A model generated the notes under the pieces. It ran no database searches and was not told the DNA's origin. It was given only the letters and a program-made list of their open reading frames with translations. Both the position numbers and the translations under genes were made by a program. 43,500 nucleotides of DNA from a virus (Duplodnaviria; Heunggongvirae; Uroviricota; Caudoviricetes): IMG/VR virus record IMGVR_UViG_2728369187_000005; one strand, given 5' to 3'. Positions 897-41,948 of the stretch are shown here, piece by piece. Within the stretch, counting starts at the first letter, position 1, and every line of letters begins with the position of its first letter.

Positions 897-3800
897 TCAG
901 CTAATCGTGATGCCTGCAGTGGCTTTCTTCATCACAACAACCAGCAAATCGCTGATACTTGCTGTGGGATACCAGCCATTTACCCACCATGCTGATACAG
1001 AAAACTCCAGTGTCATTACGCCACTGCCTGCAGGCATATCAATAACACCCGTGTAAATCAGAGTATTATCCAGAGCCGTTCGGTTATAAATTTCAGCCCC
1101 GTTTTTCTTCACTATCAGGCGGCATGACGAATAAGTATCGCTATTCTCCCGTTCATGTCTGGCACCGCTGAAAGCCACCGCTGGAATAACAATTTGCCGG
1201 TCAAACGGCTGATCGTCATAAACCCTGACGGTAATGGTCCCTGATGGCCACCGCTCCGGTGCACGGGAGTCCCGGGGGAAAGCTTTGCCCACTGTTTTAA
1301 CGAGATCGCCTTCAATCTGGTTCGCGGACAGTTTTCCCAGAACCCGACAGTTCTCGTTAATCGTGACGTTGTTGAGCGTCCCGGAGTTCGCATTCACGCT
1401 ACCGCTGATATCGGCATTTTTCGCCGTCAGTCGCCCGTCCGGTGTCAGGGAAAATGCCGGAGGATTACCGCCGCTGGTAATGGTGGGAGCCGTCAGATAT
1501 TTCAGGAACACTTCATTCATGAATATCTGATCGCCCTGACCAACAAACATCGGCTTTGTGTTGCCATTCGCAGGATTAATCATCGCAATCCTGTCTGCCG
1601 CCAGCAGCACCTGACTCTGCATGCCGTCGGGGGTGTTCTCAATACCGGCACCGATACCCGCAATATAAAGGCGTCCGTCCTGCATCTGCTGCAGCTTCAC
1701 TGCCCACATGCTGTTCAGGTTATTATTTGTATCAACCTGAACCTTCTGTATCTGCTGGATCGCTGCACTCTGGTCTTCCAGTTTCTTATTGACGGTCTGC
1801 GTGATTTCATTGCTGACATCCGTAATGGACGTCCTGATTTCAGCCAGGTCAGGCGCAAGCTGACCGTTATCAATCTGCGTCCACAGCTCCTGAGCCAGAT
1901 GGGTTTTCCCTATCTCGCCTTTGAAAAAATCCAGATAGCCGGATGCATCATCACTCGGCTGACCAACAGCCTCCACGAATGCCGATTTGCCAACGGTGTT
2001 CACACTGCGAACGTAAAAATAATAATCATGGCCCGGTTTGATATTGATACTGGCGGCTATCCAGTACAGCCCCGTGCCAAGGTAGCGCGCTGTGGTTTCA
2101 ACCTGCCTGATATCGGTAATCCGCTTTTCCGAGAACCAGAACTCAAACTGTACCGTCGGGTCATAAACGGCAAGATGCGGCGTGGCGGTTATCTGAAAAT
2201 ACCCCGGCGTCAGCTCAATCCGCGACGGTGCTACCGGTGCGGCAATCCGGAACGATACCGACNNNNNNNNNNNNNNNNNNNNNNNNNNNNNNNNNNNNNN
2301 NNNNNNNNNNNNNNNNNNNNNNNNNNNNNNNNATCCGCTGCCACGGTCAGGCGAAGCAGGAAGCTCACGCCCTTCACCACCTTCGGCGTGTCCCAGCGCG
2401 CCAGCACCTGATATTCCCCGCTGTCTGCGGTGACTTCGGCGGTCAGGTGCTGCACCGCTGGCGGCGTGACACCATTCACCGTGCCGCTCTGGTCGCCGTC
2501 AAAGTGCGCCCCGTTATCCACGATGGCTTCTTTTTCCGGTACATGCTGCACGGCAGTGATGGCATACGTGCCGTCATCGTTCTCACGGATACTCACACAG
2601 CGGAACAGGCGCTGGCGCAGCGTCGGCAGCTTCAGCCCCCACACACTGTATTCTGCAACGCCGTCAGGAACCCGGTTCACTTTCACCTTAAGTCCGTCGG
2701 TGACGGACTGAACCTCCACGCTGACCGGATTACCACTTCCGTCAACCAGGCTTATCAGCGTGGTACCGGAGGATGGCAGCGTGATTTCACGGTCGAGCGT
2801 CAGCGTCCGGGTCTGGCTGTTCACCGCCAGCACGCGACCACCGGTGCTGATACCGGCATAGTCATCATCGCAGATTTCAATGACATCGCCCGGTACATGG
2901 CGAAGCCCTTCAGCACCCACGCTGAAATCCACGGTCTGCATTTCCAGCAGTTCCGTTTTAATCAGCCACAGCCCGGCGCGGTGTGCCTGCCCCCGGCTGG
3001 TACAGCCAAAGGCATCCATCTTCGTAACATTACGACCGTAACGGGCAATGGCCTGCGTATCTTCAACAAGCTCTGTCGCCGTCTCCCAGCCGTTGTCCGG
3101 GTCAATCCAGTTCACCTCAACGGCATTATGGCGGTCCTTCAGGGCGCTGAAGCTGTAGCGGAACGGCGCGCCATCATCCGGCATCACCACATTACTGCGG
3201 TTATAGGTCCACACCTTATCCGACGGTCGGTCCTGCACGAACGTCAGCGTCTGCCCGTTCCATACCGGCATACAGCGCATCGCCGAGCAGAAATCACTGA
3301 GCACATCCCACGCCTTGCGCTGTGTGGTCAGGTACGCATTACAGGTGATGCGCGGCTCCGTGCCGCCAAAGCCGTCCGGCACTGACTGGTCGCAGTACTG
3401 GCCGATGACATACAGCGCCCATTTGTCCACATCCGCCGCACCAAGACGTTTCCCCATGCCGTAGCGTGGATGGGTCAGCATATCCCACAGACACCAGGCC
3501 ATGTTATTGCTGTATGCTGGCTTAAACGTTCCGTCCCAGATACCGCTGTATTGCCGAGTCTGCGGGTTATAGTTCGACGGCACCTGCAGAATACGCCCGC
3601 GCAGATGATAATTACGGCTCACCTGCTGGCTGCCGAACTGCTCCGAATCCACCTGTACGCCGACCAGTGCCGTGTTCGGGTAGCACTGTTTCACATCGAT
3701 GATTTCGGTGTATGACGACCAGAGCGTTTTGTTCTGCAGCTGGTCTGTGGTGCTGTCCGGCGTCATCCTGCGCATCCGGATATTGAACGGGCGCGGCGGC

Positions 3801-4283
3801 AGGTCACCCACCACCACCGATGCTAGATACTGTGAGGTGGTTTTGCCTTTAATGGTGATGTCTTTTTCCGTCACCCAGCCACCATTACGCTGTATCTGAA
3901 CCAGCAGGCGGACTTCCGACGGATTCCGGTCCCCCTTTGAGGTGNNNNNNNNNNNNNNNNNNNNNNNNNNNNNNNNNNNNNNNNNNNNNNNNNNNNNNNN
4001 NNNNNNNNNNNNNNNNNNNNNNNNNNNNNNNNNNNNNNNNNNNNNNNNNNNNNNNNNNNNNNNNNNNNNNNNNNNNNNNNNNNNNNNNNNNNNNNNNNNN
4101 TATATTGGTATTCCCCTCACTGTCCAGCACCGGCGTACTGTTCAGCAGCACGCTTTTTAATCCATCCACCGGACCTTCAACCGGCCCTTCGCTGATGGCA
4201 TCGATCACACTCAGCAGCTGCGTGGACTTCAGGTTGTCCTTCGCTTCGCGCGGGGTATGCCCCTTACTGCTGCCTTTACCCAT
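897..4283 (-). CDS. J: tail tip host-specificity protein J (reading frame interrupted by two assembly gaps)
   Basis: Three ORF segments (897-2003, 2231-4120, 3885-4283) in one orientation; N-terminus [34 protein letters not shown] and internal blocks match lambda J as recalled; total span about 1129 codons. Confidence 0.85.
2263..2332. other. assembly gap (70 N) inside J
   Basis: Run of N. Confidence 0.99.
3945..4100. other. assembly gap (156 N) inside J
   Basis: Run of N. Confidence 0.99.
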
Positions 4284-5702: not shown

Positions 5703-6257
5703 TCAGGCATTTGCTGCATTTATCCTTCGTGATATCGGACNNNNNNNNNNNNNNNNNNNNNNNNNNNNNNNNNNNNNNNNNNNCGTTTCAGTCGGCGTGG
5801 ACAGTACAAAAGAGGCACTGACCGCGCTCAGTTCGCTGCACTGCTCGATGCGCCAGCGGCTGATCACCTCCTGCTCCGGATCGGCTTCGCTGTTTCCGTT
5901 GACGAAGTTCACCGCATCCAGAAAGCGGGCGTAAACCTTACGCCGGACCACCGTTCCGCCGACCAGACTCTGCAGATCTTCCGCCATCCCGGTGATCATG
6001 CCGTGCAGGTTAGAGACCGCCAGTGTCGGACGGGCAGCACTGCCCTTGCCGTTCATCTCAAATCCACTCCCCTGAATGGGATAGGCCTGATACTGCCGAC
6101 TCTGCCAGGTGACAGACTCACCTTTTTCGTTCTGCTCATTACAGAAAAAGTAGCGATCCCCGCCTACCTCGGTCAGGTCGATTTCCCAGAGCACCACGCT
6201 GGCCGACTGCTCCGCACGAATGCATTCATTCAGCGTTTCCTGTTGTATGTCCTGCAT
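5703..6257 (-). CDS. L: tail tip protein L (3' part uncertain because of a 43-N gap; probably continues to about 5630)
   Basis: ORF starting [41 protein letters not shown], lambda-L-like; sits between M and K. Confidence 0.7.
   Translation of the reverse strand: MQDIQQETLNECIRAEQSASVVLWEIDLTEVGGDRYFFCNEQNEKGESVTWQSRQYQAYPIQGSGFEMNGKGSAARPTLAVSNLHGMITGMAEDLQSLVGGTVVRRKVYARFLDAVNFVNGNSEADPEQEVISRWRIEQCSELSAVSASFVLSTPTETXXXXXXXXXXXXXXXPISRRINAANA
5741..5783. other. assembly gap (43 N) inside L
   Basis: Run of N. Confidence 0.99.
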
Positions 6258-21674: not shown

Positions 21675-22458
21675 ATTCCTCCTCCTCACCACCATGCATG
21701 ATCTCCACCATGCGCTGCGTCATCCGGACAAATCCATTTTCAATAGCCTGCTGATAATCAATGATCACCAGCGCCGACTCCTCGAAAAAACACTGAATTT
21801 CAGAGGGGGCGTGAGCGTAATAGTCCGCAATTCTGCTGAAATTAAACACCGTGTGACGTTCTGCCGCACACAGGAGGAATTTCTCAATATCAGGCTCAAG
21901 GGACGCCGAACGTATCCGGCTGATCAGCTCCTGAGTTTTCGTATCGTCGTACAGTTCACTGATATCCGGTTTACCGCCCGACGGCTCATAAACAGGCGTA
22001 TCAATTTTCGTCGTATACGGCTCCTCCTCATTTCCTGTACCGGGCAAAACATCCGTCAACAGTTCATCAATTTCTGTCGGGATGAAGCCTGTCAGGGAGA
22101 CATCAAAATCAGCATTGATTAGGTCCGACAGCTCCATCCGCAACAGATCTTCATCCCAGCCAGCATTCATCGGCAGGCGATTATCTGCCAGGCGGTACGC
22201 CTTTTTCTGCTCATCCGTCAGGCCAGACAGAACAATGACCGGAACAGAATCCATTTTGAGCATTTCAGCCGCCATAACACGACCGTGACCCGCAATAATT
22301 TCGCCCTTTTCGTCAATCAGCACCGGATTAGTCCAGCCGAATTGCTTAATACTTTCTACCAGTTGTGCCACCTGCTCAGTACTGTGCGTCCTGGCGTTGT
22401 GCGCATACGGTGACAATTCTTGTAATGGGCGATAGACTATCTTTAATTTCTCGCTCAT
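21667..22458 (-). CDS. ynaK: ParB-like nuclease domain protein
   Basis: N-terminal ParB/Srx-type motif block IVYRPLQELSPYAHNARTHS ... NPVLIDEKGEIIAGHGRVMAA; 263 aa; acidic C-terminal tail. Confidence 0.8.
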   Translation of the reverse strand: MSEKLKIVYRPLQELSPYAHNARTHSTEQVAQLVESIKQFGWTNPVLIDEKGEIIAGHGRVMAAEMLKMDSVPVIVLSGLTDEQKKAYRLADNRLPMNAGWDEDLLRMELSDLINADFDVSLTGFIPTEIDELLTDVLPGTGNEEEPYTTKIDTPVYEPSGGKPDISELYDDTKTQELISRIRSASLEPDIEKFLLCAAERHTVFNFSRIADYYAHAPSEIQCFFEESALVIIDYQQAIENGFVRMTQRMVEIMHGGEEEEYA

Positions 22459-22595: not shown

Positions 22596-24053
22596 TTAGG
22601 AGCGCCAAAAAAAACCTGAAAACAATATAATAACAGGATAAATTTCAAGGCGACCAAGAATCATAGCTATGCACATTAAACATTTTGCAATGTCATTAAG
22701 CACTCCGAATGACGATGCAGTAGCCCCAAAACCTAATCCCATATTATTAATACATGCAGCCACTGTTGCAAATGATGTAAGAAAATCATATCCCATACCA
22801 TTTAACACCAGTATAAAAAACACCGTGAAGAGAGTATAAAGAAAAAAGAAACTCCATACAGACCTCATTACACGATCTGTAACTATCTTCCCTCCTACAT
22901 TTACACTCAACAACGCTCTGGGATGAGAAAGCTGATTTATCTCGTGTTTGCTTTGTTTGAAAAGTATAAGAAATCGAAGTGACTTAATTCCACCACAAGT
23001 TGAACCTATACATCCCCCAAAGAAACTTGACAACAGCAAAAACACTATCGTGTGCGTGGGCCAACTTGCATAATCCTGCGTAGCTAAACCATTATCAGTG
23101 AGCATGGAGCTGGCAAGAAAAAACGAATGAATAAAACTTCCATGCAAGTCATACATACCTATATGCCAGACCTGGAAAGAGGTAACAATGATCACCCCTA
23201 AGGCTATTAACAGAAAGAAACGAAGTTCAATATCTCTGATTAAAGGTTTTATCGTTTTCCTGCTAATAACAATATACCAAAGAGTGAAGTTGAAAGCCGA
23301 TAGCAGGGAAAAAGAACCAGCCACCAGCTCAACCAAATAGTTATTAAAATATCCGATACTCTCGCTATGAGTTGAGAAACCACCAAGCGAAACTGTGGAA
23401 ATCCCGTGACAAATAGCATCAAACAAAGGCATTCCTGCAAGTCTATAACAGACAATACAAGCAATACCTAATAAAGAATAAGTTATCCACAGTGTCCGTG
23501 ACGTATCGGCCAGGCGGGGAGTGAGTTTGTCATCCTTAAATGGCCCCGGCATTTCTGACTGATAAAGCTTTGCACCACCAATACCCAATAATGGCAATAC
23601 AGCAACCGCCAGAACAATAACTCCTAAACCACCTATAAAATTTAACTGTGACCGATAGTACAAATATGCCCGAGGTAATGAACTAACATCATCAATTACA
23701 GTTGCTCCTGTTGTTGTTATTCCAGAAACCCCTTCAAACAGAGCATCAATGAACGTTAAATTAAGTTCTGAGTCAATCCATAAAGGGAATGCACTAATAA
23801 CAGAAAACAAAATCCAAAACATTACAATTATAATAAACCCATCACGGGTACGTAATTGAATGCCAGATTTCTTAGTTGTATACCACGCTCCGCCACCAAT
23901 GCAAAAAAATATAACGAAAGTTATAAAGAAAACGAACAGGCTTTTTTCTTTATAAAACAATGCTACAACCATTGGTGGCAACATTGAAAGACTATAGAGC
24001 CAAACCAGGAACCCACACATATGAGTAACAACTCTTACATGAGATGTATTCAT
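22596..24053 (-). CDS. trkG: Trk-family K+ uptake transporter
   Basis: Polytopic membrane ORF with N-terminus MNTSHVRVVTHMCGFLVWLYSLSML as recalled for K-12 TrkG; AT-rich codon usage typical of a moron. Confidence 0.9.
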   Translation of the reverse strand: MNTSHVRVVTHMCGFLVWLYSLSMLPPMVVALFYKEKSLFVFFITFVIFFCIGGGAWYTTKKSGIQLRTRDGFIIIVMFWILFSVISAFPLWIDSELNLTFIDALFEGVSGITTTGATVIDDVSSLPRAYLYYRSQLNFIGGLGVIVLAVAVLPLLGIGGAKLYQSEMPGPFKDDKLTPRLADTSRTLWITYSLLGIACIVCYRLAGMPLFDAICHGISTVSLGGFSTHSESIGYFNNYLVELVAGSFSLLSAFNFTLWYIVISRKTIKPLIRDIELRFFLLIALGVIIVTSFQVWHIGMYDLHGSFIHSFFLASSMLTDNGLATQDYASWPTHTIVFLLLSSFFGGCIGSTCGGIKSLRFLILFKQSKHEINQLSHPRALLSVNVGGKIVTDRVMRSVWSFFFLYTLFTVFFILVLNGMGYDFLTSFATVAACINNMGLGFGATASSFGVLNDIAKCLMCIAMILGRLEIYPVIILFSGFFWRS

Positions 24054-27441: not shown

Positions 27442-28040
27442 TACGCAAACTCCAGCAGCTGCGCGGTCACATTTTCGACTTGTTCCGGAGAGGAAAATTT
27501 ACGGAACAGAATCCAGTTCCACAGCACATTCAGAACAGATTTATAAACCTGCTGAAACTCGGTTTCGTCCATATTCGCAAAAGCGATGGATTTCGCCCGA
27601 CGCCCATGGCTACCATCAGGATAAAGATGCTCGGTGTAAAATCCGGCCTGAATGGTTACCCACTCGCGGAAAGCCTCAAACGACTTTAGCAATGCCGTAT
27701 CCCGGGTTCTGCGTGTCGCAACTGTATTCAGATATTGCTCTGCGGCTTCGCTCAGAGCTGGCGTATGTTCCCGGCCTACTGATTCACATAGGTAATCAAC
27801 GAATCCTGAAACCAGCTTTCGTTCGCGAGGCGTGATCGCCCCACCGACCGGAGTCCAGTAATCGAATCCCAGTTGCAGGAGTTTGAAAAAACGCTTGTGG
27901 AATGCGTAGTTACGCACACGCTTAAAGTCTGCGTGTATCCACTCGCCTATTTTGATTTGATGCAAAAAATCGCAACTCTCCGGCGTCGCCGGGAGAAGTA
28001 GTCCAGAAGAGGTTTGTTTGACCAGTTGTATATGCGCCAT
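27441..28040 (-). CDS. conserved nin-region phage protein (possibly DUF1367-like)
   Basis: 199-aa ORF, first gene of the minus-strand cluster ending in the Q-like gene; ATG overlaps the downstream start region. Confidence 0.6.
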   Translation of the reverse strand: MAHIQLVKQTSSGLLLPATPESCDFLHQIKIGEWIHADFKRVRNYAFHKRFFKLLQLGFDYWTPVGGAITPRERKLVSGFVDYLCESVGREHTPALSEAAEQYLNTVATRRTRDTALLKSFEAFREWVTIQAGFYTEHLYPDGSHGRRAKSIAFANMDETEFQQVYKSVLNVLWNWILFRKFSSPEQVENVTAQLLEFA

Positions 28041-28224
28041 TTCTCAATCTCTCGATGGCGCAGTGCAGCAGATGCCAGTTGTTCAGGCTGACGAATAAAG
28101 TATAAATAAACTGGCTATGGTGTAAAGCTCCACATAACATGAACAAACACTACATATCAAATAGCTGATACAAGGATAGAAATACAACACTTATTATTAA
28201 AAACGATTAGATAAATTACATTTT

Positions 28225-28259
28225 AATGTTATGAAAAAGTTCTTTTTTATCATAACATT
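28225..28259. promoter_or_regulatory. palindrome AATGTTATGA-N15-TCATAACATT (candidate operator) in divergent intergenic region
   Basis: Perfect 10-bp inverted repeat, extendable with one bulge to about 15 bp. Confidence 0.35.
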
Positions 28260-28318
28260 TCAACAAAAGCATTACAGATGCACATCCCGTCATCATCAAT
28301 TATTTAAGGTGGTTAAAC

Positions 28319-28405
28319 ATGGAAAATAACAACTATGCACATCTCGCTCCTTTTTTATCCGTAATCCTTTTCGCTGGCTGTTTTATATGGGCATTATTTT
28401 TATAA
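28319..28405 (+). CDS. small hydrophobic peptide (28 aa)
   Basis: ATG 6 nt after AAGGTGG; MENNNYAHLAPFLSVILFAGCFIWALFL; single predicted TM helix. Confidence 0.35.
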   Translation: MENNNYAHLAPFLSVILFAGCFIWALFL

Positions 28406-28478
28406 AGTAGCCGCATGATTAGTTTCTGGAATCATGTTTCCCACTCAAATCATTAACATTTGATAAGATATATCTAAA

Positions 28479-28540
28479 AGGATGCCTTTACATTATTTGA
28501 TGCGTATATGATTTATTTATATGCACAGTAAAGGCATCCT
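28479..28540. other. long hairpin, perfect 13-bp stem with about 36-nt loop
   Basis: AGGATGCCTTTAC ... GTAAAGGCATCCT; minus-strand version is followed by TTTTAGATAT. Confidence 0.4.
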
Positions 28541-28907
28541 GGAAATAATCAAGATTAATGATATATTGCTTATCTCATCCCCCACTGTCTTTCACCCGGA
28601 AAACATTTATCGTTAAAAATATATCATAAGTAATTAAATTGAAATTTCAGAACACAACTAATGCACACAATAAGATTCAGTAACAGTAATCTATGCGGAC
28701 TATATCGAGATTTTTTAGTTAAACTTTAATAAGTTATTCCTAACACACAGAATGCACAAACTAAAAGTAAAACAAATAGTTATACGAAAAACAACCATAT
28801 TGATTCTATCTTCTCCTCTAATCAACATATCAATTATGTGTTTCATAACAGCTTGACATAACCCTCAAAAAGGTGCATTTATAATGCATGTTTTATGGGA
28901 GGTGGTT

Positions 28908-29249
28908 ATGACACACAAGAGAATTCCTAAAGACTGGGTAATCAAACGCTCAACTCCGTTCTTCACAAAAGAGAACGTACCTTCAGCGTTATTAACACAT
29001 CATAATACAGCAGCAGGTGTTTTTGGACAGTTATGCGTGATGGAAGGTACTGTAACATATTATGGTTTTGCTGATGAGAATGCTACTGAACCGGAGATAA
29101 AAGTAGTCATTAATGCTGGCGCTTTTGCAACAAGCCCACCACAATACTGGCACCGTGTTGAACTAAGCGATGATGCTCAGTTTAATATTAACTTTTGGGT
29201 AGCTCCAGACTTCTCAGGCGAAAAAGTCTATACCGCAAAAAAAGAATAG
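28908..29249 (+). CDS. YeaR-like (DUF1971) cupin-type protein
   Basis: ORF 28884-29249; ATG at 28908 after GGGAGGTGG; motifs RSTPFFTKENVP ... FNINFWVAPDF resemble E. coli YeaR as recalled. Confidence 0.55.
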   Translation: MTHKRIPKDWVIKRSTPFFTKENVPSALLTHHNTAAGVFGQLCVMEGTVTYYGFADENATEPEIKVVINAGAFATSPPQYWHRVELSDDAQFNINFWVAPDFSGEKVYTAKKE

Positions 29250-29410
29250 CCACGCTATAAATATCTTATTAACTAGTCCCGGCGTGGTTCTTTCCCCGCT
29301 GGGTCTTTTACTCAGATTAGTAGTCTACGAATCAGAGCCTCCGTCTGCCAGTTCGGATTCGTACCTCGCAGAGGTCTTTCCTCGTTACCAGTGCCGTCAC
29401 TATGACGGTT

Positions 29411-29483
29411 NNNNNNNNNNNNNNNNNNNNNNNNNNNNNNNNNNNNNNNNNNNNNNNNNNNNNNNNNNNNNNNNNNNNNNNNN
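29411..29483. other. assembly gap (73 N) in non-coding region
   Basis: Run of N. Confidence 0.99.
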
Positions 29484-29989
29484 ACCTTTCGGTCCGTAAG
29501 AGGCTAATCTCTATGTGTCGCATAGATATGGCCTCAGATTAATGTTAAACGTCTTGCAGGACGCGTAATGTTAACTGGGGCTTTTCTCTATCTACCTTTG
29601 GTGTTCATGCCCGAGGCAGATAGCCTCAAGCACCCACAGCAATTCTAACTATCCAATACATCACTGCCAACACTTTAAACTCTTACCCTTTAAAACAAGA
29701 ACAAAATTCAACCAATCAGCATTGGGCGTATACTCATATCCTAGAGAAAACAACTCTTTCTGTACTATTTATATCCATATGATTTATAAGCATTTGCCAC
29801 TTGCCATAGCCGCACAATGACAGTTTGCCATTTGATGTCAATAGATAAAAATGATCGTTTTCAATGAGTTACATACTTGCAAGGCGTTGCACATCAGGCC
29901 CGATTACGTCAGTATCAAAAGATTACAGATGGTGCATTACTGCCACTTCGCCTTAATGTTCCAGAACTCTCCAACTTGAGGAATTTTCA

Positions 29990-30763
29990 ATGACATCCTT
30001 TCAATTATCTTTGATTTCTCGTGAAATTGACGGCGAAATAATACATTTACGTGCCAAAGATGGTTACATAAACGCCACATCAATGTGTAGAACTGCGGGC
30101 AAACTGCTCTCTGATTACACTAGACTCAAAACTACTCAAGAGTTTTTTGACGAATTATCACGCGATATGGGAATTCCCATATCGGAGTTAATTCAATCAT
30201 TTAAAGGTGGAAGACCTGAAAACCAAGGGACATGGGTGCATCCTGACATCGCTATTAATCTAGCGCAGTGGCTATCGCCCAAATTTGCAGTCCAGGTTTC
30301 AAGATGGGTTCGTGAATGGATGTCAGGGGAAAGAACTACAGCAGAAATGCCTGTACATTTAAAACGGTACATGGTTAATCGTAGTAGAATTCCTCACACG
30401 CACTTTTCTATTCTTAATGAACTGACATTCAACTTGGTTGCACCTCTTGAACAAGCAGGGTACACACTCCCAGAAAAAATGGTTCCTGACATTTCACAAG
30501 GAAGAGTATTTTCACAATGGTTAAGAGATAATAGAAACGTAGAACCCAAAACATTCCCTACCTATGACCATGAATATCCCGATGGTCGCGTATACCCTGC
30601 AAGGCTGTACCCAAATGAATATTTAGCAGATTTCAAAGAACATTTTAACAATATTTGGTTGCCGCAATATGCCCCGAAATACTTCGCTGACCGGGACAAA
30701 AAGGCTCTCGCCTTGATTGAAAAAATTATGCTACCTAACCTCGATGGCAATGAACAGTTCTAA
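29990..30763 (+). CDS. KilA-N domain protein
   Basis: 257-aa ORF; N-terminal block IHLRAKDGYINATSMCRTAGKLLSDYTRLKTTQEF ... WVHPDIAINLAQWLSPKFAVQVSRWV typical of KilA-N; GAGGAA upstream of ATG. Confidence 0.8.
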   Translation: MTSFQLSLISREIDGEIIHLRAKDGYINATSMCRTAGKLLSDYTRLKTTQEFFDELSRDMGIPISELIQSFKGGRPENQGTWVHPDIAINLAQWLSPKFAVQVSRWVREWMSGERTTAEMPVHLKRYMVNRSRIPHTHFSILNELTFNLVAPLEQAGYTLPEKMVPDISQGRVFSQWLRDNRNVEPKTFPTYDHEYPDGRVYPARLYPNEYLADFKEHFNNIWLPQYAPKYFADRDKKALALIEKIMLPNLDGNEQF

Positions 30764-30771
30764 ATGATTAG

Positions 30772-30798
30772 CCAGCCCCATAAGGGCTGGTTATTTAG
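30772..30798 (+). terminator. intrinsic terminator after the KilA-N gene
   Basis: CCAGCCC-cataa-GGGCTGG followed by TTATTTAGTATTAT. Confidence 0.5.
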
Positions 30799-30883
30799 TA
30801 TTATCAACCCCAGCGGCAAATCGAATACACCACCAGCGCCACCGCCATCGCAATTCCTACCGTTGTGAATGCTTCAGGCCAGG

Positions 30884-31387
30884 TCATCGTAAAACATCCT
30901 CCACGCTTATAAGTCCGCTTCGCTCCAGGTAGTCCATCACTTTATCCGGCAATTTGCAGCCCGGTTTCGGTTTCTTCAGTTGACTAACCAATTGTTTAAC
31001 CAGCATTGTCAATTCGCGAACTTGTTTCCCGGGCTCCCCTTTGCCCTGAAGCAGGGCAGCGCGGCAAGCGTTCCATCCCTCAGCATATGTTTCAGTTACA
31101 CCATCGAGATGGCATGTAAGCAAATCCATTTCTTCCGGCACTACGGGCGCTGGAAAAACGGCATAGGGTGGCGTCCATTTTGGCGCTTTATCTCCAGCCG
31201 AACGCTGATACCAGTCATCCGGTTTGTATTCATAAAAATCACCAACTGGCTCTGCTTCCAGCGATGCCAGAGCAATTTTGAATAATTCGCCCTCTACCCG
31301 TGCCATCCCTGAATTGGGGTGGCATTTCTCAATCGCTATTTTTAATTTAGCTTCTTCGATTAATTGCTTTTTGGTTAATTCAGTCAT
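30884..31387 (-). CDS. hypothetical phage protein (167 aa)
   Basis: ORF in the early-right gene series; no recognised motif. Confidence 0.55.
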   Translation of the reverse strand: MTELTKKQLIEEAKLKIAIEKCHPNSGMARVEGELFKIALASLEAEPVGDFYEYKPDDWYQRSAGDKAPKWTPPYAVFPAPVVPEEMDLLTCHLDGVTETYAEGWNACRAALLQGKGEPGKQVRELTMLVKQLVSQLKKPKPGCKLPDKVMDYLERSGLISVEDVLR

Positions 31388-35246: not shown

Positions 35247-35259
35247 AGAATATTAAGCA

Positions 35260-35736
35260 ATGCTTAGTGGTAAAGACTTAGGCCGAGCGATAGAGCAGGC
35301 CATTAACAAAAAAATCGCATCGGGATCCGTCAAATCAAAGGCGGAGGTCGCACGCCACTTCAAAGTCCAACCACCATCAATTTATGACTGGATTAAGAAA
35401 GGCTCTATAAGTAAAGATAAACTTCCAGAATTATGGCGTTTCTTTTCTGATGTTGTTGGTCCAGAGCATTGGGGGCTTAACGAATACCCCATACCAACCC
35501 CCACCAATTCAGATACAAAAAGTGAACTTTTAGATATAAACAACCTTTATCAAGCAGCCTCTGATGAAATAAGAGCGATTGTAGCTTTCCTGTTATCTGG
35601 AAATGCTACAGAACCAGATTGGGTTGACCACGATGTTCGCGCCTACATAGCAGCGATGGAAATGAAAGTGGGTAAGTATCTGAAAGCTCTAGAATCTGAA
35701 CGGAAAAGCCAGAACATCACAAAAACTGGAACTTAA
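35260..35736 (+). CDS. racR: prophage repressor RacR
   Basis: 158-aa ORF divergent from ydaS; size and position as K-12 racR. Confidence 0.85.
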   Translation: MLSGKDLGRAIEQAINKKIASGSVKSKAEVARHFKVQPPSIYDWIKKGSISKDKLPELWRFFSDVVGPEHWGLNEYPIPTPTNSDTKSELLDINNLYQAASDEIRAIVAFLLSGNATEPDWVDHDVRAYIAAMEMKVGKYLKALESERKSQNITKTGT

Positions 35737-41516: not shown

Positions 41517-41572
41517 TTCAGCCTGGCGGTGTAATGCACCGCCAACTTGAAATATTTTTTATGAGAAAAATT

Positions 41573-41767
41573 ATGAGATATGACAATGTTAAACCATGTC
41601 CATTTTGTGGTTGTCCATCAGTAACGGTGAAAGTCATTTCAGGATATTACCGAGCGAAGTGTAACGGATGCGAATCCCGAACCGGTTATGGTGGAAGTGA
41701 AAAAGAAGCACTCGAAAGATGGAATAAACGAACCACTGGAAATAATAACGGAGGTGTTCATGTATAA
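41573..41767 (+). CDS. ralR: restriction alleviation protein / type I toxin RalR (Lar)
   Basis: MRYDNVKPCPFCGCPSVTVKVISGYYRAKCNGCESRTGYGGSEKEALERWNKRTTGNNNGGVHV, 64 aa. Confidence 0.8.
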   Translation: MRYDNVKPCPFCGCPSVTVKVISGYYRAKCNGCESRTGYGGSEKEALERWNKRTTGNNNGGVHV

Positions 41768-41948
41768 AATTACCGCCACTATTGAAAAGGAAGGTGGCAC
41801 TCCTACTAACTGGACAAGATATTCAAAATCTAAACTAACGAAATCAGAATGCGAAAAAATGCTCTCAGGTAAAAAAGAAGCAGGCGTTTCCAGAGAGCAG
41901 AAAGTAAAACTGATAAATTTTAATTGCGAGAAACTTCAGTCCTCGTGA
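41760..41948 (+). CDS. ydaC: YdaC-like small protein
   Basis: Start MYKITATIEKEGGTPTNWTRYSK at 41760, overlapping the ralR stop. Confidence 0.65.
   Translation: MYKITATIEKEGGTPTNWTRYSKSKLTKSECEKMLSGKKEAGVSREQKVKLINFNCEKLQSS

What the first reader, a model, noticed from the sequence alone, without database searches (positions are those of the whole stretch)
28041..30800. Counter-oriented AT-rich island in the nin-like region: small peptide, YeaR-like protein, KilA-N protein and about 740 bp of non-coding DNA
Within a run of minus-strand early/late genes, this roughly 2.8-kb AT-rich stretch carries three plus-strand genes with good ribosome-binding sites: a 28-aa hydrophobic peptide, a 113-aa YeaR/DUF1971-like protein and a 257-aa KilA-N protein. 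It also holds a 13-bp-stem hairpin, several palindromes and a 740-bp ORF-free segment (29250-29990) that contains an assembly gap. Composition and orientation mark it as horizontally acquired cargo. KilA-N proteins are often anti-repressor or toxic modules, and YeaR-type proteins are not normal phage functions. The non-coding segment may encode a regulatory RNA. The combination is not one I recognise as a described system.
Basis: partly seen in the sequence, partly recalled or inferred. Interest (0 to 1): 0.6.

Follow-up and report, generated by a model that had tools for sequence, protein, structure and literature searches.

The report
Prophage cargo island of known modules
The AT-rich island is a patchwork of four separate accessory cassettes at a variable site of an E. 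coli Rac-type prophage, not a new system: a small unannotated membrane-peptide gene, a nitric-oxide-stress gene with a host NsrR operator, a hok/sok toxin-antitoxin locus hidden by the sequence gap, and a BstA-type anti-phage gene.

Summary
The sequence features are real, with one exception. The "740-bp ORF-free, non-coding" segment holds a hok/sok type I toxin-antitoxin locus on the minus strand. The N run hides the hok start codon. Relatives that are 99.99-100 % identical show the 63 missing bases.

The KilA-N protein belongs to the BstA family of prophage abortive-infection proteins. It has a canonical KilA-N/APSES domain at the N-terminus and a BstA C-terminal domain.

The DUF1971 gene is about 80 % identical to chromosomal genes of Salmonella, Klebsiella and Vibrio. 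It carries a near-consensus NsrR 11-1-11 operator over its -10 box. The Salmonella and Klebsiella orthologues have one too, and the Vibrio orthologue lies next to norVW. It is therefore most likely a nitric-oxide-responsive moron.

The 28-codon ORF is present in about 22 % of complete E. coli genomes and is never annotated. Its start, stop and ribosome-binding site are kept across two lineages that are about 75 % identical.

The four cassettes occur separately, with other neighbours, in other genomes. Only 100 of 5,426 genomes carry the whole combination. The site is a variable cargo and defence hotspot, and the island is not one system.

The components are known kinds, so overall interest is modest. 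The NsrR-wired phage gene and the small ORF are the only new points.

The parts
28099..28126 (-). Sigma-70-like promoter (TTTACA-16-TATACT) and start of the conserved 5' leader of the DUF1367-YbcO-Q-like operon. It forms part of the conserved border block 28041-28406.
   Evidence: 10 of 12 matches. The region is nearly invariant in divergent copies.
28225..28259 (.). Imperfect inverted repeat or hairpin about 60 nt upstream of the small ORF. The basal stem is conserved. The apical part differs between the two lineages but is self-complementary in both. Function unknown.
   Evidence: searches (I4; z -3.3), alignment.
28319..28405 (+). Unannotated 28-codon ORF, MENNNYAHLAPFLSVILFAGCFIWALFL. It has a polar N-terminus followed by a 19-residue hydrophobic tail, so it is a candidate small membrane protein.
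   Evidence: It is present in 1,177 of 5,426 E. coli genomes. All 9 nucleotide alleles keep the SD, ATG, length and TAA. The homology block ends at the stop codon. It is absent from the protein collection and from RefSeq annotation.
28479..28540 (.). Long hairpin with a 13-bp perfect outer stem and an inner stem, inside the AT-rich leader of the DUF1971 cassette. No function assigned.
   Evidence: Relatives L007 and L008 carry pair-breaking changes without compensation. No Rfam match.
28870..28892 (.). NsrR-type 11-1-11 inverted repeat AAGGTGCATTTATAATGCATGTT, enclosing a perfect TATAAT (28880-28885), 16 nt upstream of the DUF1971 start codon.
   Evidence: 26.3 bits with a matrix built from the 27 E. 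coli CFT073 sites of PMC5320621. The next best site in the window scores 11.4, and the best of 300 shuffles scores 19.7. Orthologues are covered.
28908..29249 (+). DUF1971 (TehB-N/YeaR-like) protein of 113 aa. It is of the Salmonella/Klebsiella/Vibrio chromosomal type.
   Evidence: (PDB 3DL3 at 2.6e-59, YeaR 3BB6 at 4.6e-25).
29278..29309 (+). Terminator-like hairpin (CCCGGCGTGG/CCCCGCTGGG) followed by TCTTTT, after the DUF1971 gene. Its 3' arm is the last part homologous to hok loci, so it marks the junction of the two cassettes.
   Evidence: (-17.5 kcal/mol, z -4.0).
29332..29467 (-). hok toxin gene, a 41-codon allele: MKQQKAMLIALIVICLTVIVTALVTRKDLCEVRIRTGRRRL. It is frameshifted after codon 37 relative to the 51-aa HokW and HokD. 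The start codon and the first 16 codons are hidden by the N run.
29411..29483 (.). Run of 73 N. In relatives it is 63 nt (+ strand AAACAGATGACGATCAGGGCGATTAACATCGCCTTTTGCTGCTTCATAGCCTGCTTCTCCTTG). This covers hok codons 1-16, the hok SD, the end of mok and half of the Sok -35 box.
29464..29523 (-). mok leader ORF of 19 codons, MRHIEISLLRTERSRRSRL. Its stop codon overlaps the hok ATG (ATGA).
   Evidence: An intact hokD locus (L010) has the identical leader ORF.
29486..29635 (-). Structured 5' leader of the hok mRNA, covered by the Rfam family named 'sok', RF01794.
29515..29585 (+). Sok antisense RNA gene. The promoter-like site is TTGACC (29481-29486, half masked)-18-TAATCT (29505-29510). The terminator hairpin ends in CTTTT.
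   Evidence: (96 % identity over 55 nt to the annotated sokW of phage 933W).
29642..29670 (-). hok/mok promoter, TTGGCA-17-TAGAAT.
   Evidence: Homology to other hok loci ends at about 29671.
29825..29852 (+). Promoter-like site (TTGCCA-16-AAAAAT) upstream of the bstA-like gene. It overlaps a 28-nt box (29844-29871) that also lies upstream of a different cargo gene in Rac-SA53 and L010.
   Evidence: This is a consensus match only.
29990..30763 (+). BstA-family protein of 257 aa. Residues about 14-112 form a canonical KilA-N/APSES DNA-binding domain. Residues about 120-250 form the BstA C-terminal domain.
30769..30793 (+). Intrinsic terminator of the bstA-like gene, with a 10-bp stem followed by TTTAGTATT.
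   Evidence: -18.6 kcal/mol, z -4.7.

Best explanation
The stretch 28041-30800 is an accessory ("moron") region at a recombination hotspot of a complete Rac-type lambdoid prophage. It lies between the replication genes and the nin-like DUF1367-YbcO-Q operon. It consists of four self-contained cassettes that were assembled by recombination and act independently.

(1) Border block, 28041-28406. It holds the promoter and leader of the DUF1367 operon on the minus strand and a 28-codon ORF for a small hydrophobic peptide on the plus strand. The function of the peptide is unknown, and I infer that it is a small membrane protein.

(2) DUF1971 cassette, about 28407-29293. It has a 450-bp AT-rich leader, a TATAAT box enclosed by a near-consensus NsrR operator, the DUF1971 gene and a terminator.
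- Inferred mechanism: in the lysogen the host [Fe-S] repressor NsrR sits on the operator. Nitric oxide inactivates NsrR and the gene is derepressed.
- The result would be to give E. coli a copy of the NO-stress gene that Salmonella, Klebsiella and Vibrio carry on the chromosome.

(3) hok/sok type I toxin-antitoxin locus on the minus strand, about 29294-29671. The hok mRNA carries a 19-codon mok leader that is translationally coupled to hok. The antisense Sok RNA covers the mok start and blocks translation. This copy has lost the 3' fold-back (fbi) element and encodes a 41-aa Hok with an altered C-terminus, so its killing capacity is uncertain.

(4) bstA-like cassette, about 29672-30800, with its own promoter region and terminator. 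Inferred mechanism, by homology to BstA: the protein is made in the lysogen, binds replicating foreign phage DNA through its KilA-N domain and aborts the infection.

Shown here: all sequence features, the homologies, the operator score and its conservation in orthologues, and the independent distribution of the cassettes.

Inferred only: expression, NsrR control, toxicity of the short Hok, defence activity, and translation of the small ORF.
For: Context: the window is a whole Rac-type prophage running from intR, recET and racR through ydaSTUV to the tail genes.

hok/sok:
- Rfam RF01794 scores 83.9 and 101.5 bits.
- RefSeq annotates a Hok/Gef gene in identical relatives.
- The locus is 89.6 % identical to the experimentally characterised hokW-sokW of 933W/Sp5 (PMC8621323).
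- mok, Sok and the promoters are mapped.

BstA family:
- PHROG 6287 "BstA abortive infection system" matches over the full length at 2.7e-89.
- The PADLOC BstA model matches at 3.2e-21.
- BLASTP against BstA of BTP1 gives 3e-16, and hhalign gives 97.9 % probability.
- A 78 %-identical homologue sits directly downstream of a LexA-type prophage repressor, which is the canonical BstA position.

DUF1971 and NsrR:
- The operator scores 26.3 bits. Only ytfE, of the 27 training sites, scores higher.
- The Salmonella and Klebsiella orthologues carry 25.5- and 29.7-bit sites 48-50 nt upstream in otherwise unrelated upstream DNA.
- The Vibrio orthologues lie immediately after norV-norW, next to norR and a hemerythrin gene.
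- E. coli K-12 lacks the gene at the syntenic dsbB site.

Independence and hotspot:
- The whole island is in 100 of 5,426 genomes, the peptide module in 1,177, and the bstA-like gene in 138.
- The same site carries other cargo elsewhere: hokD alone, the IteS anti-phage peptidase, a KAP-type P-loop NTPase, an AAA ATPase, beta/sce7726 genes, QueH, an MFS transporter or IS3.

Inducibility: the identical island occurs in sequenced phage genomes vB_EcoS-666R9, -673R7 and -613R10.
Against: - No expression or phenotype data could be obtained.
- The hok allele is frameshifted, and the fbi element is absent. The best 5'/3' duplex is no better than 51 of 500 shuffles. The locus may be a decaying remnant.
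- The NCBIfam Hok models score below their cut-offs, 34.8 against 73.
- The BstA similarity by direct BLAST is confined to the C-terminal domain at 32 % identity. The gene is not next to the repressor here, and no aba self-immunity element could be recognised.
- The perfect TTGACA (28853-28858) lies 21 nt from the TATAAT, which is non-canonical spacing. The DUF1971 promoter is therefore not defined.
- Substitutions in the 28-codon ORF fall about equally on codon positions 2 and 3 ([3,7,8]). There is no clear signature of purifying selection.
Confidence: 0.8

Rival explanations
1. One reading: the peptide, the YeaR-like protein, the KilA-N protein and an RNA from the non-coding segment form one new multi-component system, for example a defence or toxin module.
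For: The parts are adjacent, share the plus-strand orientation and the low G+C, and are 100 % conserved together in 100 genomes and 3 phage genomes.
Against: Each part occurs without the others. The peptide module sits next to hokD, IteS, a KAP NTPase or IS3. DUF1971 occurs with QueH or an MFS transporter. The bstA homologue occurs next to a repressor. hok occurs in more than 4,800 genomes. The DUF1971 and bstA-like genes each end in their own terminator-like hairpin, and the hok locus has its own promoters. The 100 genomes share about 100 % identity, which points to recent common descent of one prophage.
Confidence: 0.04
2. The KilA-N protein is an anti-repressor or transcription regulator of the prophage (Bro/Ant/KilA-like), not an abortive-infection protein.
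For: The KilA-N domain is a DNA-binding fold. PHROG 129 'transcriptional regulator' matches residues 13-118 at 9.2e-25. Many records annotate homologues as 'DNA-binding protein' or 'transcriptional regulator'. The gene lies in the early region, away from the repressor.
Against: The C-terminal half is homologous to the BstA C-terminal domain. The best PHROG, over the full length, is the BstA family. A close homologue occupies the canonical BstA slot after a repressor. The gene runs counter to the early operon and has its own terminator, as expected for a lysogeny-expressed moron.
Confidence: 0.12
3. The hok/sok locus is an inactive relic. The truncated Hok is not toxic, and the locus contributes nothing.
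For: A 1-nt deletion shifts the frame after codon 37. Further 2-nt and 3-nt deletions follow. The 3' fbi element was replaced when the DUF1971 cassette was joined.
Against: The promoter, leader structure, mok, SD and the Sok gene with its promoter are all intact. The membrane-spanning N-terminal 37 residues are identical to HokW and HokD. From memory (Poulsen et al. 1991, not checked here), the toxicity of Gef/Hok resides in the membrane-spanning part.
Confidence: 0.4
4. The 28-codon ORF is not a gene. The block is conserved only because it is recent common DNA next to the DUF1367 promoter.
For: Nucleotide identity in the ORF (about 79 %) is close to that of the upstream DNA (about 75 %). Substitutions are not concentrated at third codon positions. 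There is no homologue outside Escherichia/Shigella and no family match.
Against: All 9 alleles keep ATG, 28 codons, TAA and a strong SD at the same spacing. There are no indels in the ORF, while the upstream 190 nt has several. No charged residue ever enters the hydrophobic tail. In a simulation, random substitution keeps all of this in only 4.5 % of trials. The homology block ends exactly at the stop codon.
Confidence: 0.35

Closest known systems
hokW-sokW of Stx2 phages 933W and Sp5, and hokD of E. coli lambdoid prophages (hok/sok type I toxin-antitoxin family)
   Same: About 90 % nucleotide identity from the promoter to the hok C-terminus. It has the same leader structure (Rfam RF01794), the same Sok 3' part (96 %) and the first 37 Hok residues identical. 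The 19-codon mok leader is the same as in intact hokD loci. In Rac-SA53 and many E. coli genomes hok sits at the same position next to the DUF1367/nin genes.
   Different: Hok is 41 aa instead of 51, with RRRL after Gly37. The 3' fbi fold-back element is missing because the DUF1971 cassette abuts the locus.
BstA abortive-infection proteins with aba self-immunity (Owen et al. 2021, PMC8585504)
   Same: It has the same two-domain build, a KilA-N-type N-terminal domain plus a BstA C-terminal domain. It is prophage-borne. The family HMMs of PHROGs and PADLOC match. A 78 %-identical E. coli homologue lies right after a prophage repressor, as BstA does.
   Different: It shares only 32 % identity with BstA-BTP1, and only in the C-terminal domain by BLAST. 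It is 257 aa against 307 aa. The N-terminal domain is a canonical Pfam KilA-N. The gene lies about 4.5 kb from racR, beyond the replication genes, with its own upstream region. No aba element with terminal CCCGCC repeats is present, only an imperfect inverted repeat flanking the start codon (29947-29961/30023-30037). Activity is untested.
NsrR-regulated DUF1971 genes: E. coli yeaR, and the Salmonella gene next to dsbB (most likely STM1808; that locus tag is from memory)
   Same: It has the DUF1971 fold (PDB 3DL3 and 3BB6) and a strong 11-1-11 NsrR site over the -10 region. NO-stress context is conserved across gamma-proteobacteria. yeaR and STM1808 are reported NsrR regulon members (PMC5320621, PMC7527575).
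   Different: The gene is carried by a prophage rather than the chromosome. It is preceded by 450 bp of 30 % G+C DNA. It is a distant paralogue of E. coli's own yeaR (phmmer 4.6e-25 to PDB 3BB6) but about 80 % identical to the Salmonella, Klebsiella and Vibrio genes.
Morons and defence hotspots of temperate phages (for example the cI-N region of lambdoid phages, and the P2/P4 hotspots)
   Same: Low-GC genes with their own promoter and terminator, in counter-orientation, at a fixed site where different prophages carry different cargo, much of it anti-phage.
   Different: This site lies between the replication genes and the DUF1367/nin-like genes of Rac-type phages. I did not find it described in the papers searched, but I did not search exhaustively.

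Membership tests
hok/sok type I toxin-antitoxin | Hok toxin ORF of about 50 aa with an N-terminal transmembrane helix | tested here: inconclusive
   The first 37 residues are identical to HokW and HokD, and PHROG 251 matches at 3.2e-23. The ORF stops at 41 aa after a frameshift, and the NCBIfam Hok models score below cut-off, 34.8 against 73.
hok/sok type I toxin-antitoxin | Structured hok mRNA leader with a mok leader ORF coupled to hok | tested here: met
   Rfam RF01794 scores 83.9 bits in the window and 101.5 bits in the gap-free relative, against a gathering score of 59. The 19-codon mok has a stop overlapping the hok ATG and is identical to that of an intact hokD locus.
hok/sok type I toxin-antitoxin | Antisense Sok RNA gene with its own promoter and terminator opposite the mok start | tested here: met
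   29515-29585(+) is 96 % identical over 55 nt to the annotated sokW. There is a promoter-like TTGACC-18-TAATCT and a terminator hairpin. Transcription itself was not testable.
hok/sok type I toxin-antitoxin | 3' fbi element that pairs with the 5' end of the full-length mRNA | tested here: not met
   Homology to hokW and hokD ends at about 29294, before the fbi sequence. The best 5'/3' duplex is within the range of shuffles, 51 of 500.
BstA abortive-infection family | N-terminal KilA-N(-like) DNA-binding domain | tested here: met
BstA abortive-infection family | C-terminal BstA domain | tested here: met
   BLASTP of residues 125-251 against residues 164-302 of BstA-BTP1 gives 32 % identity at 3e-16. 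PADLOC BstA matches at 3.2e-21, hhalign gives 97.9 %, and PHROG 6287 matches at 2.7e-89. No solved structure resembles this domain.
BstA abortive-infection family | Gene directly downstream of the prophage repressor | tested here: not met
   racR is at 35250-35726 and the gene at 29990-30763, with the replication genes between them. The feature is met by a 78 %-identical homologue in E. coli G6/7. It is frequent in the family but not universal (PMC8585504).
BstA abortive-infection family | Cognate aba DNA element overlapping the start of the gene | not testable with these tools
   aba elements are specific to each homologue and are defined functionally (PMC8585504). There are no CCCGCC terminal repeats here. 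An imperfect inverted repeat flanks the ATG (I12). The upstream DNA is not conserved in the G6/7 homologue.
BstA abortive-infection family | Abortive infection with block of phage DNA replication | not testable with these tools
   This needs plaque and survival assays.
NsrR regulon, DUF1971 (YeaR/STM1808-type) genes | DUF1971 domain protein | tested here: met
   Pfam PF09313 at 3.5e-26. PDB 3DL3 at 2.6e-59 and YeaR 3BB6 at 4.6e-25.
NsrR regulon, DUF1971 (YeaR/STM1808-type) genes | 11-1-11 NsrR inverted repeat in the promoter | tested here: met
   The site scores 26.3 bits at 28870-28892. It is second only to ytfE among the 27 reference sites and lies far above the window background and the shuffles. 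Equivalent sites lie upstream of the Salmonella and Klebsiella orthologues.
NsrR regulon, DUF1971 (YeaR/STM1808-type) genes | Derepression by nitric oxide or in an nsrR mutant | not testable with these tools
   This needs expression data.
Type I toxin (considered for the 28-aa ORF) | Small hydrophobic peptide with an overlapping or adjacent antisense RNA | tested here: inconclusive
   The peptide fits. No antisense promoter, terminator or Rfam family was found in the module. Toxicity is untestable.

The most novel reading that the evidence does not exclude
The never-annotated 28-codon ORF with its conserved upstream hairpin (28225-28405) is a real, previously undescribed small membrane-protein gene. 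It marks the border of a cargo and defence hotspot in about one fifth of E. coli genomes. It might be, for example, a new type I-like toxin or a small exclusion or regulatory peptide. Secondarily, the DUF1971 cassette would be a case of lysogenic conversion wired into the host NsrR nitric-oxide regulon.
Probability: 0.3. Interest if true: 0.5.

Novelty: new member of a known kind. Interest (0 to 1): 0.3.

Why it matters
The result replaces a supposed unknown system with four identifiable modules. It also shows that a sequence gap hid an ordinary toxin gene.

Two points are of practical use.
- Rac-type prophages have a well-defined variable site that collects anti-phage genes (a BstA-like gene here; IteS, a KAP NTPase and others elsewhere). 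Such a site can be mined for new defence genes.
- A prophage appears to give E. coli an NO-stress gene that keeps a host NsrR operator. If confirmed, it would be a clear example of a phage moron plugged into a host stress regulon, relevant to survival in inflamed gut or urinary tract.

The small ORF adds one candidate to the poorly charted set of phage-borne micro-proteins.

Tried and rejected
- Rfam at relaxed threshold over 27900-31000 found nothing besides the hok leader. The ceN48 and mir-4890 matches are chance.
- The 13-bp-stem hairpin as a conserved RNA: relatives break pairs without compensation.
- A substitute fbi pairing inside the antisense of the DUF1971 gene (-31.5 kcal/mol) is no better than shuffles.
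- NarL/NarP heptamers or a canonical -35/-10 pair for the DUF1971 gene were looked for by eye. TTGACA lies 21 nt from TATAAT, and no convincing activator site was seen.
- The exact peptide sequences are absent from the 15-billion-protein collection, from the papers, and from phage records other than four E. coli phages. Outside Escherichia/Shigella the genome-scan pattern gave only chance matches.
- K-12 Qin lacks the peptide module.
- The Karlinsey et al. 2012 paper on the Salmonella NsrR regulon is not held. The equation of the Salmonella orthologue with STM1808 therefore rests on gene order recalled from memory.
- The 10-nt length difference of the gap is not informative, because all four N runs of the window differ in length from the complete relative.

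Full report
**Context.** The window is a complete Rac-type lambdoid prophage of E. coli. It runs from intR, xisR, ralR, recT, recE, kilR, sieB and racR through ydaS/T/U/V, a DUF1627 gene, a DUF977 gene and a 167-aa gene to the island. After the island come DUF1367, YbcO/DUF1364, a DUF1133 (Q-like) gene, the lysis genes, trkG, and the head and tail genes. A complete genome, NZ_AP045802.1, is 99.99 % identical over 23.6 kb to the left of the gap and 14 kb to its right. Three sequenced phage genomes carry the identical island.

**Checking the observation.**
- The island has 38.1 % G+C against 47.8 % for the rest of the window, and it is the lowest-GC 2.76-kb stretch.
- One statement fails. The segment 29250-29990 is not free of genes.

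**What the "non-coding" segment holds.**
- Rfam places family RF01794 (named "sok") on the minus strand at 29486-29635 with 83.9 bits, against a gathering score of 59.
- In the gap-free relative the match rises to 101.5 bits and runs from the 5' end of the hok mRNA to the hok AUG. The Rfam model therefore describes the sense-strand leader.
- RefSeq annotates a 41-aa Hok/Gef protein there.
- The N run hides 63 nt in the relatives: hok codons 1-16, its SD, the end of mok and half of the Sok -35 box.
- All four N runs of the window differ in length from the relative, so 73 against 63 means nothing.
- hok-like DNA is multi-copy, with a median of two and up to ten places per genome. The hidden part is invariant among hok copies. 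I infer from this that the assembly broke there because of the repeat.

**Anatomy of the hok/sok locus.**
- It is 89.6 % identical to hokW-mokW-sokW of phage 933W/Sp5 and 87 % identical to the hok locus of phage Rac-SA53. In Rac-SA53 the locus sits at the same place, next to the DUF1367 gene.
- hokW-sokW has been shown to be a working type I toxin-antitoxin that speeds lysis and phage release after induction (PMC8621323).
- The promoter is TTGGCA-17-TAGAAT at 29670-29642.
- The 19-codon mok has a stop that overlaps the hok ATG. An intact hokD locus has the identical leader ORF, so this is the normal form of this lineage.
- The Sok gene lies at 29515-29585(+). It is 96 % identical to sokW in its 3' 55 nt and has the promoter-like site TTGACC-18-TAATCT.
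- Two features are defective. A 1-nt deletion after codon 37 gives ...RTGRRRL-stop, 41 aa instead of 51, and further 2- and 3-nt deletions follow.
- Homology ends at about 29294, so the 3' fbi element is absent. No alternative pairing beats shuffled controls.

**The KilA-N protein.**
- Pfam sees only KilA-N, at residues 14-112.
- PHROG 6287 "BstA abortive infection system, replication inhibitor" matches the whole length at 2.7e-89. The PADLOC BstA model matches residues 119-238 at 3.2e-21.
- Against BstA of Salmonella phage BTP1, BLASTP aligns residues 125-251 with 164-302 at 32 % identity and 3e-16. A profile of 30 homologues gives hhalign probability 97.9 % over 188 columns.
- The family is large, with 2,652 hits that all share the same two Pfam domains. 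It is 55-60 % conserved from Vibrio to Rhizobium and Paraburkholderia.
- A 78 %-identical E. coli homologue lies directly after a LexA-type prophage repressor, the position typical of BstA (PMC8585504).
- In the window the gene is about 4.5 kb from racR, with its own upstream region and terminator.
- BstA needs a cognate DNA element (aba) across its start codon for self-immunity. This could not be recognised by sequence. Only an imperfect inverted repeat flanks the ATG.

**The DUF1971 gene.**
- It is about 80 % identical to chromosomal genes of Salmonella, Klebsiella, Vibrio, Aliivibrio and Shewanella and to PDB 3DL3. It is a distant paralogue of E. coli YeaR.
- I built a matrix from the 27 NsrR sites of E. 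coli CFT073 (PMC5320621). With it, the sequence AAGGTGCATTTATAATGCATGTT at 28870-28892 scores 26.3 bits. Only ytfE among the reference sites scores higher.
- The next best site in the 43.5-kb window scores 11.4, and 300 shuffles of the island never exceed 19.7.
- The site encloses a perfect TATAAT and ends 16 nt before the start codon.
- The Salmonella and Klebsiella orthologues lie between dsbB and ycgN. They carry 25.5- and 29.7-bit sites 48-50 nt upstream, in otherwise unrelated DNA.
- The Vibrio and Aliivibrio orthologues follow norV-norW directly, and in Vibrio norR and a hemerythrin gene also lie beside them.
- E. coli K-12 has umuDC-hlyE at the syntenic place and no such gene.
- yeaR and Salmonella STM1808 are reported NsrR regulon members (PMC5320621; PMC7527575 citing Karlinsey 2012). 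That the Salmonella orthologue is STM1808 is my recollection of the gene order, and it was not checked.
- I conclude by inference that the cassette is a nitric-oxide-responsive moron repressed by host NsrR.

**The 28-codon ORF.**
- The block 28041-28406 is found in 1,177 of 5,426 complete E. coli genomes and is never annotated. The peptide is absent from the protein collection.
- Two lineages about 75 % identical, with nine nucleotide alleles, keep the SD, ATG, 28 codons and TAA. They have no indel and no charged residue in the hydrophobic tail. Homology stops exactly at the stop codon.
- Random substitution at the observed level preserves all this in 4.5 % of trials.
- Substitutions are not biased to third codon positions, so translation is likely but not shown.
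- It occurs only in Escherichia and Shigella.
- In the commonest arrangement it converges on hokD. In the window the DUF1971 cassette was inserted between the two, and this removed the hok 3' end.

**One system or several.**
- The whole island is present in 100 genomes at about 100 % identity, which points to one recent prophage lineage.
- Next to the same border block, other genomes carry other cargo: hokD plus an AAA ATPase, the IteS anti-phage peptidase, a KAP-type P-loop NTPase, beta/sce7726 genes or IS3.
- Where the DUF1971 cassette is present in other genomes, QueH or an MFS transporter follows it in place of hok and the bstA-like gene.
- The site is therefore a variable cargo and defence hotspot, and the island is a mosaic.

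**Verdict.** The components are members of known kinds. The only elements I did not find described in the searched papers are the NsrR operator on a phage-borne DUF1971 gene and the small ORF.

Noticed in passing
window 41563-41944: A second type I toxin-antitoxin locus of the prophage: ralR with its antisense RalA sRNA. Rfam RF02694 scores 225 bits at 41766-41944(-).
   Followed up: no
window 30804-30887 (-): A 27-codon hydrophobic ORF (MTWPEAFTTVGIAMAVALVVYSICRWG). Its ATG overlaps the stop codon of the upstream 167-aa gene (ATGA). It is not annotated in RefSeq relatives and is a possible second micro-protein.
   Followed up: no
window 2263-2332, 3945-4100, 5741-5783: Three further N runs in the tail genes. 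None has the length of the corresponding sequence in the 99.9 %-identical complete genome (70 against 131, 156 against 188, 43 against 116). N-run lengths in this window are therefore not reliable.
   Followed up: yes
window 28225-28259; L005 and L006 equivalents: An inverted repeat upstream of the 28-codon ORF keeps a 9-10-bp basal stem in both lineages. The apical sequence is entirely different but again self-complementary, which suggests selection for a hairpin or palindromic operator.
   Followed up: partly
window 29844-29871; L010 2872-2899; L004 (Rac-SA53) 4054-4081: A 28-nt box (GATGTCAATAGATAAAAATGATCGTTTT, 93 % identical) lies upstream of unrelated cargo genes: the bstA-like gene here and a 'beta family protein' elsewhere. 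It overlaps a promoter-like site and a GATC, and may be a shared promoter or regulatory element of the hotspot.
   Followed up: partly
L009 (NZ_CP074961.1), L006/L013, L005, L010/L011: The same site in other Rac- and Qin-type prophages carries the IteS S8 anti-phage peptidase, a 2.4-kb KAP-type P-loop NTPase, an AAA ATPase pair, or beta/sce7726 family genes. This suggests a defence hotspot worth systematic mining.
   Followed up: partly
L019, L021, L022 (Aliivibrio and Vibrio): Orthologues of the DUF1971 protein lie directly downstream of norV-norW. In Vibrio (L021, L022) norR, a hemerythrin gene and a NarL-type two-component system are also adjacent. This is a strong genomic link of this uncharacterised family to NO detoxification.
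   Followed up: partly
window 22596-24053 and 22201-22458: trkG (a potassium transporter) and a truncated ynaK pseudogene sit between the lysis and packaging genes, as in K-12 Rac. This is another cargo insertion in the same prophage.
   Followed up: no
window 28407-28850: About 450 bp of 29-32 % G+C DNA lies between the small ORF and the DUF1971 promoter. It has no conserved ORF and no RNA family match. L008 has a 51-bp deletion right after the long hairpin. Its role is unexplained; it might be an H-NS target or a long regulatory leader.
   Followed up: partly
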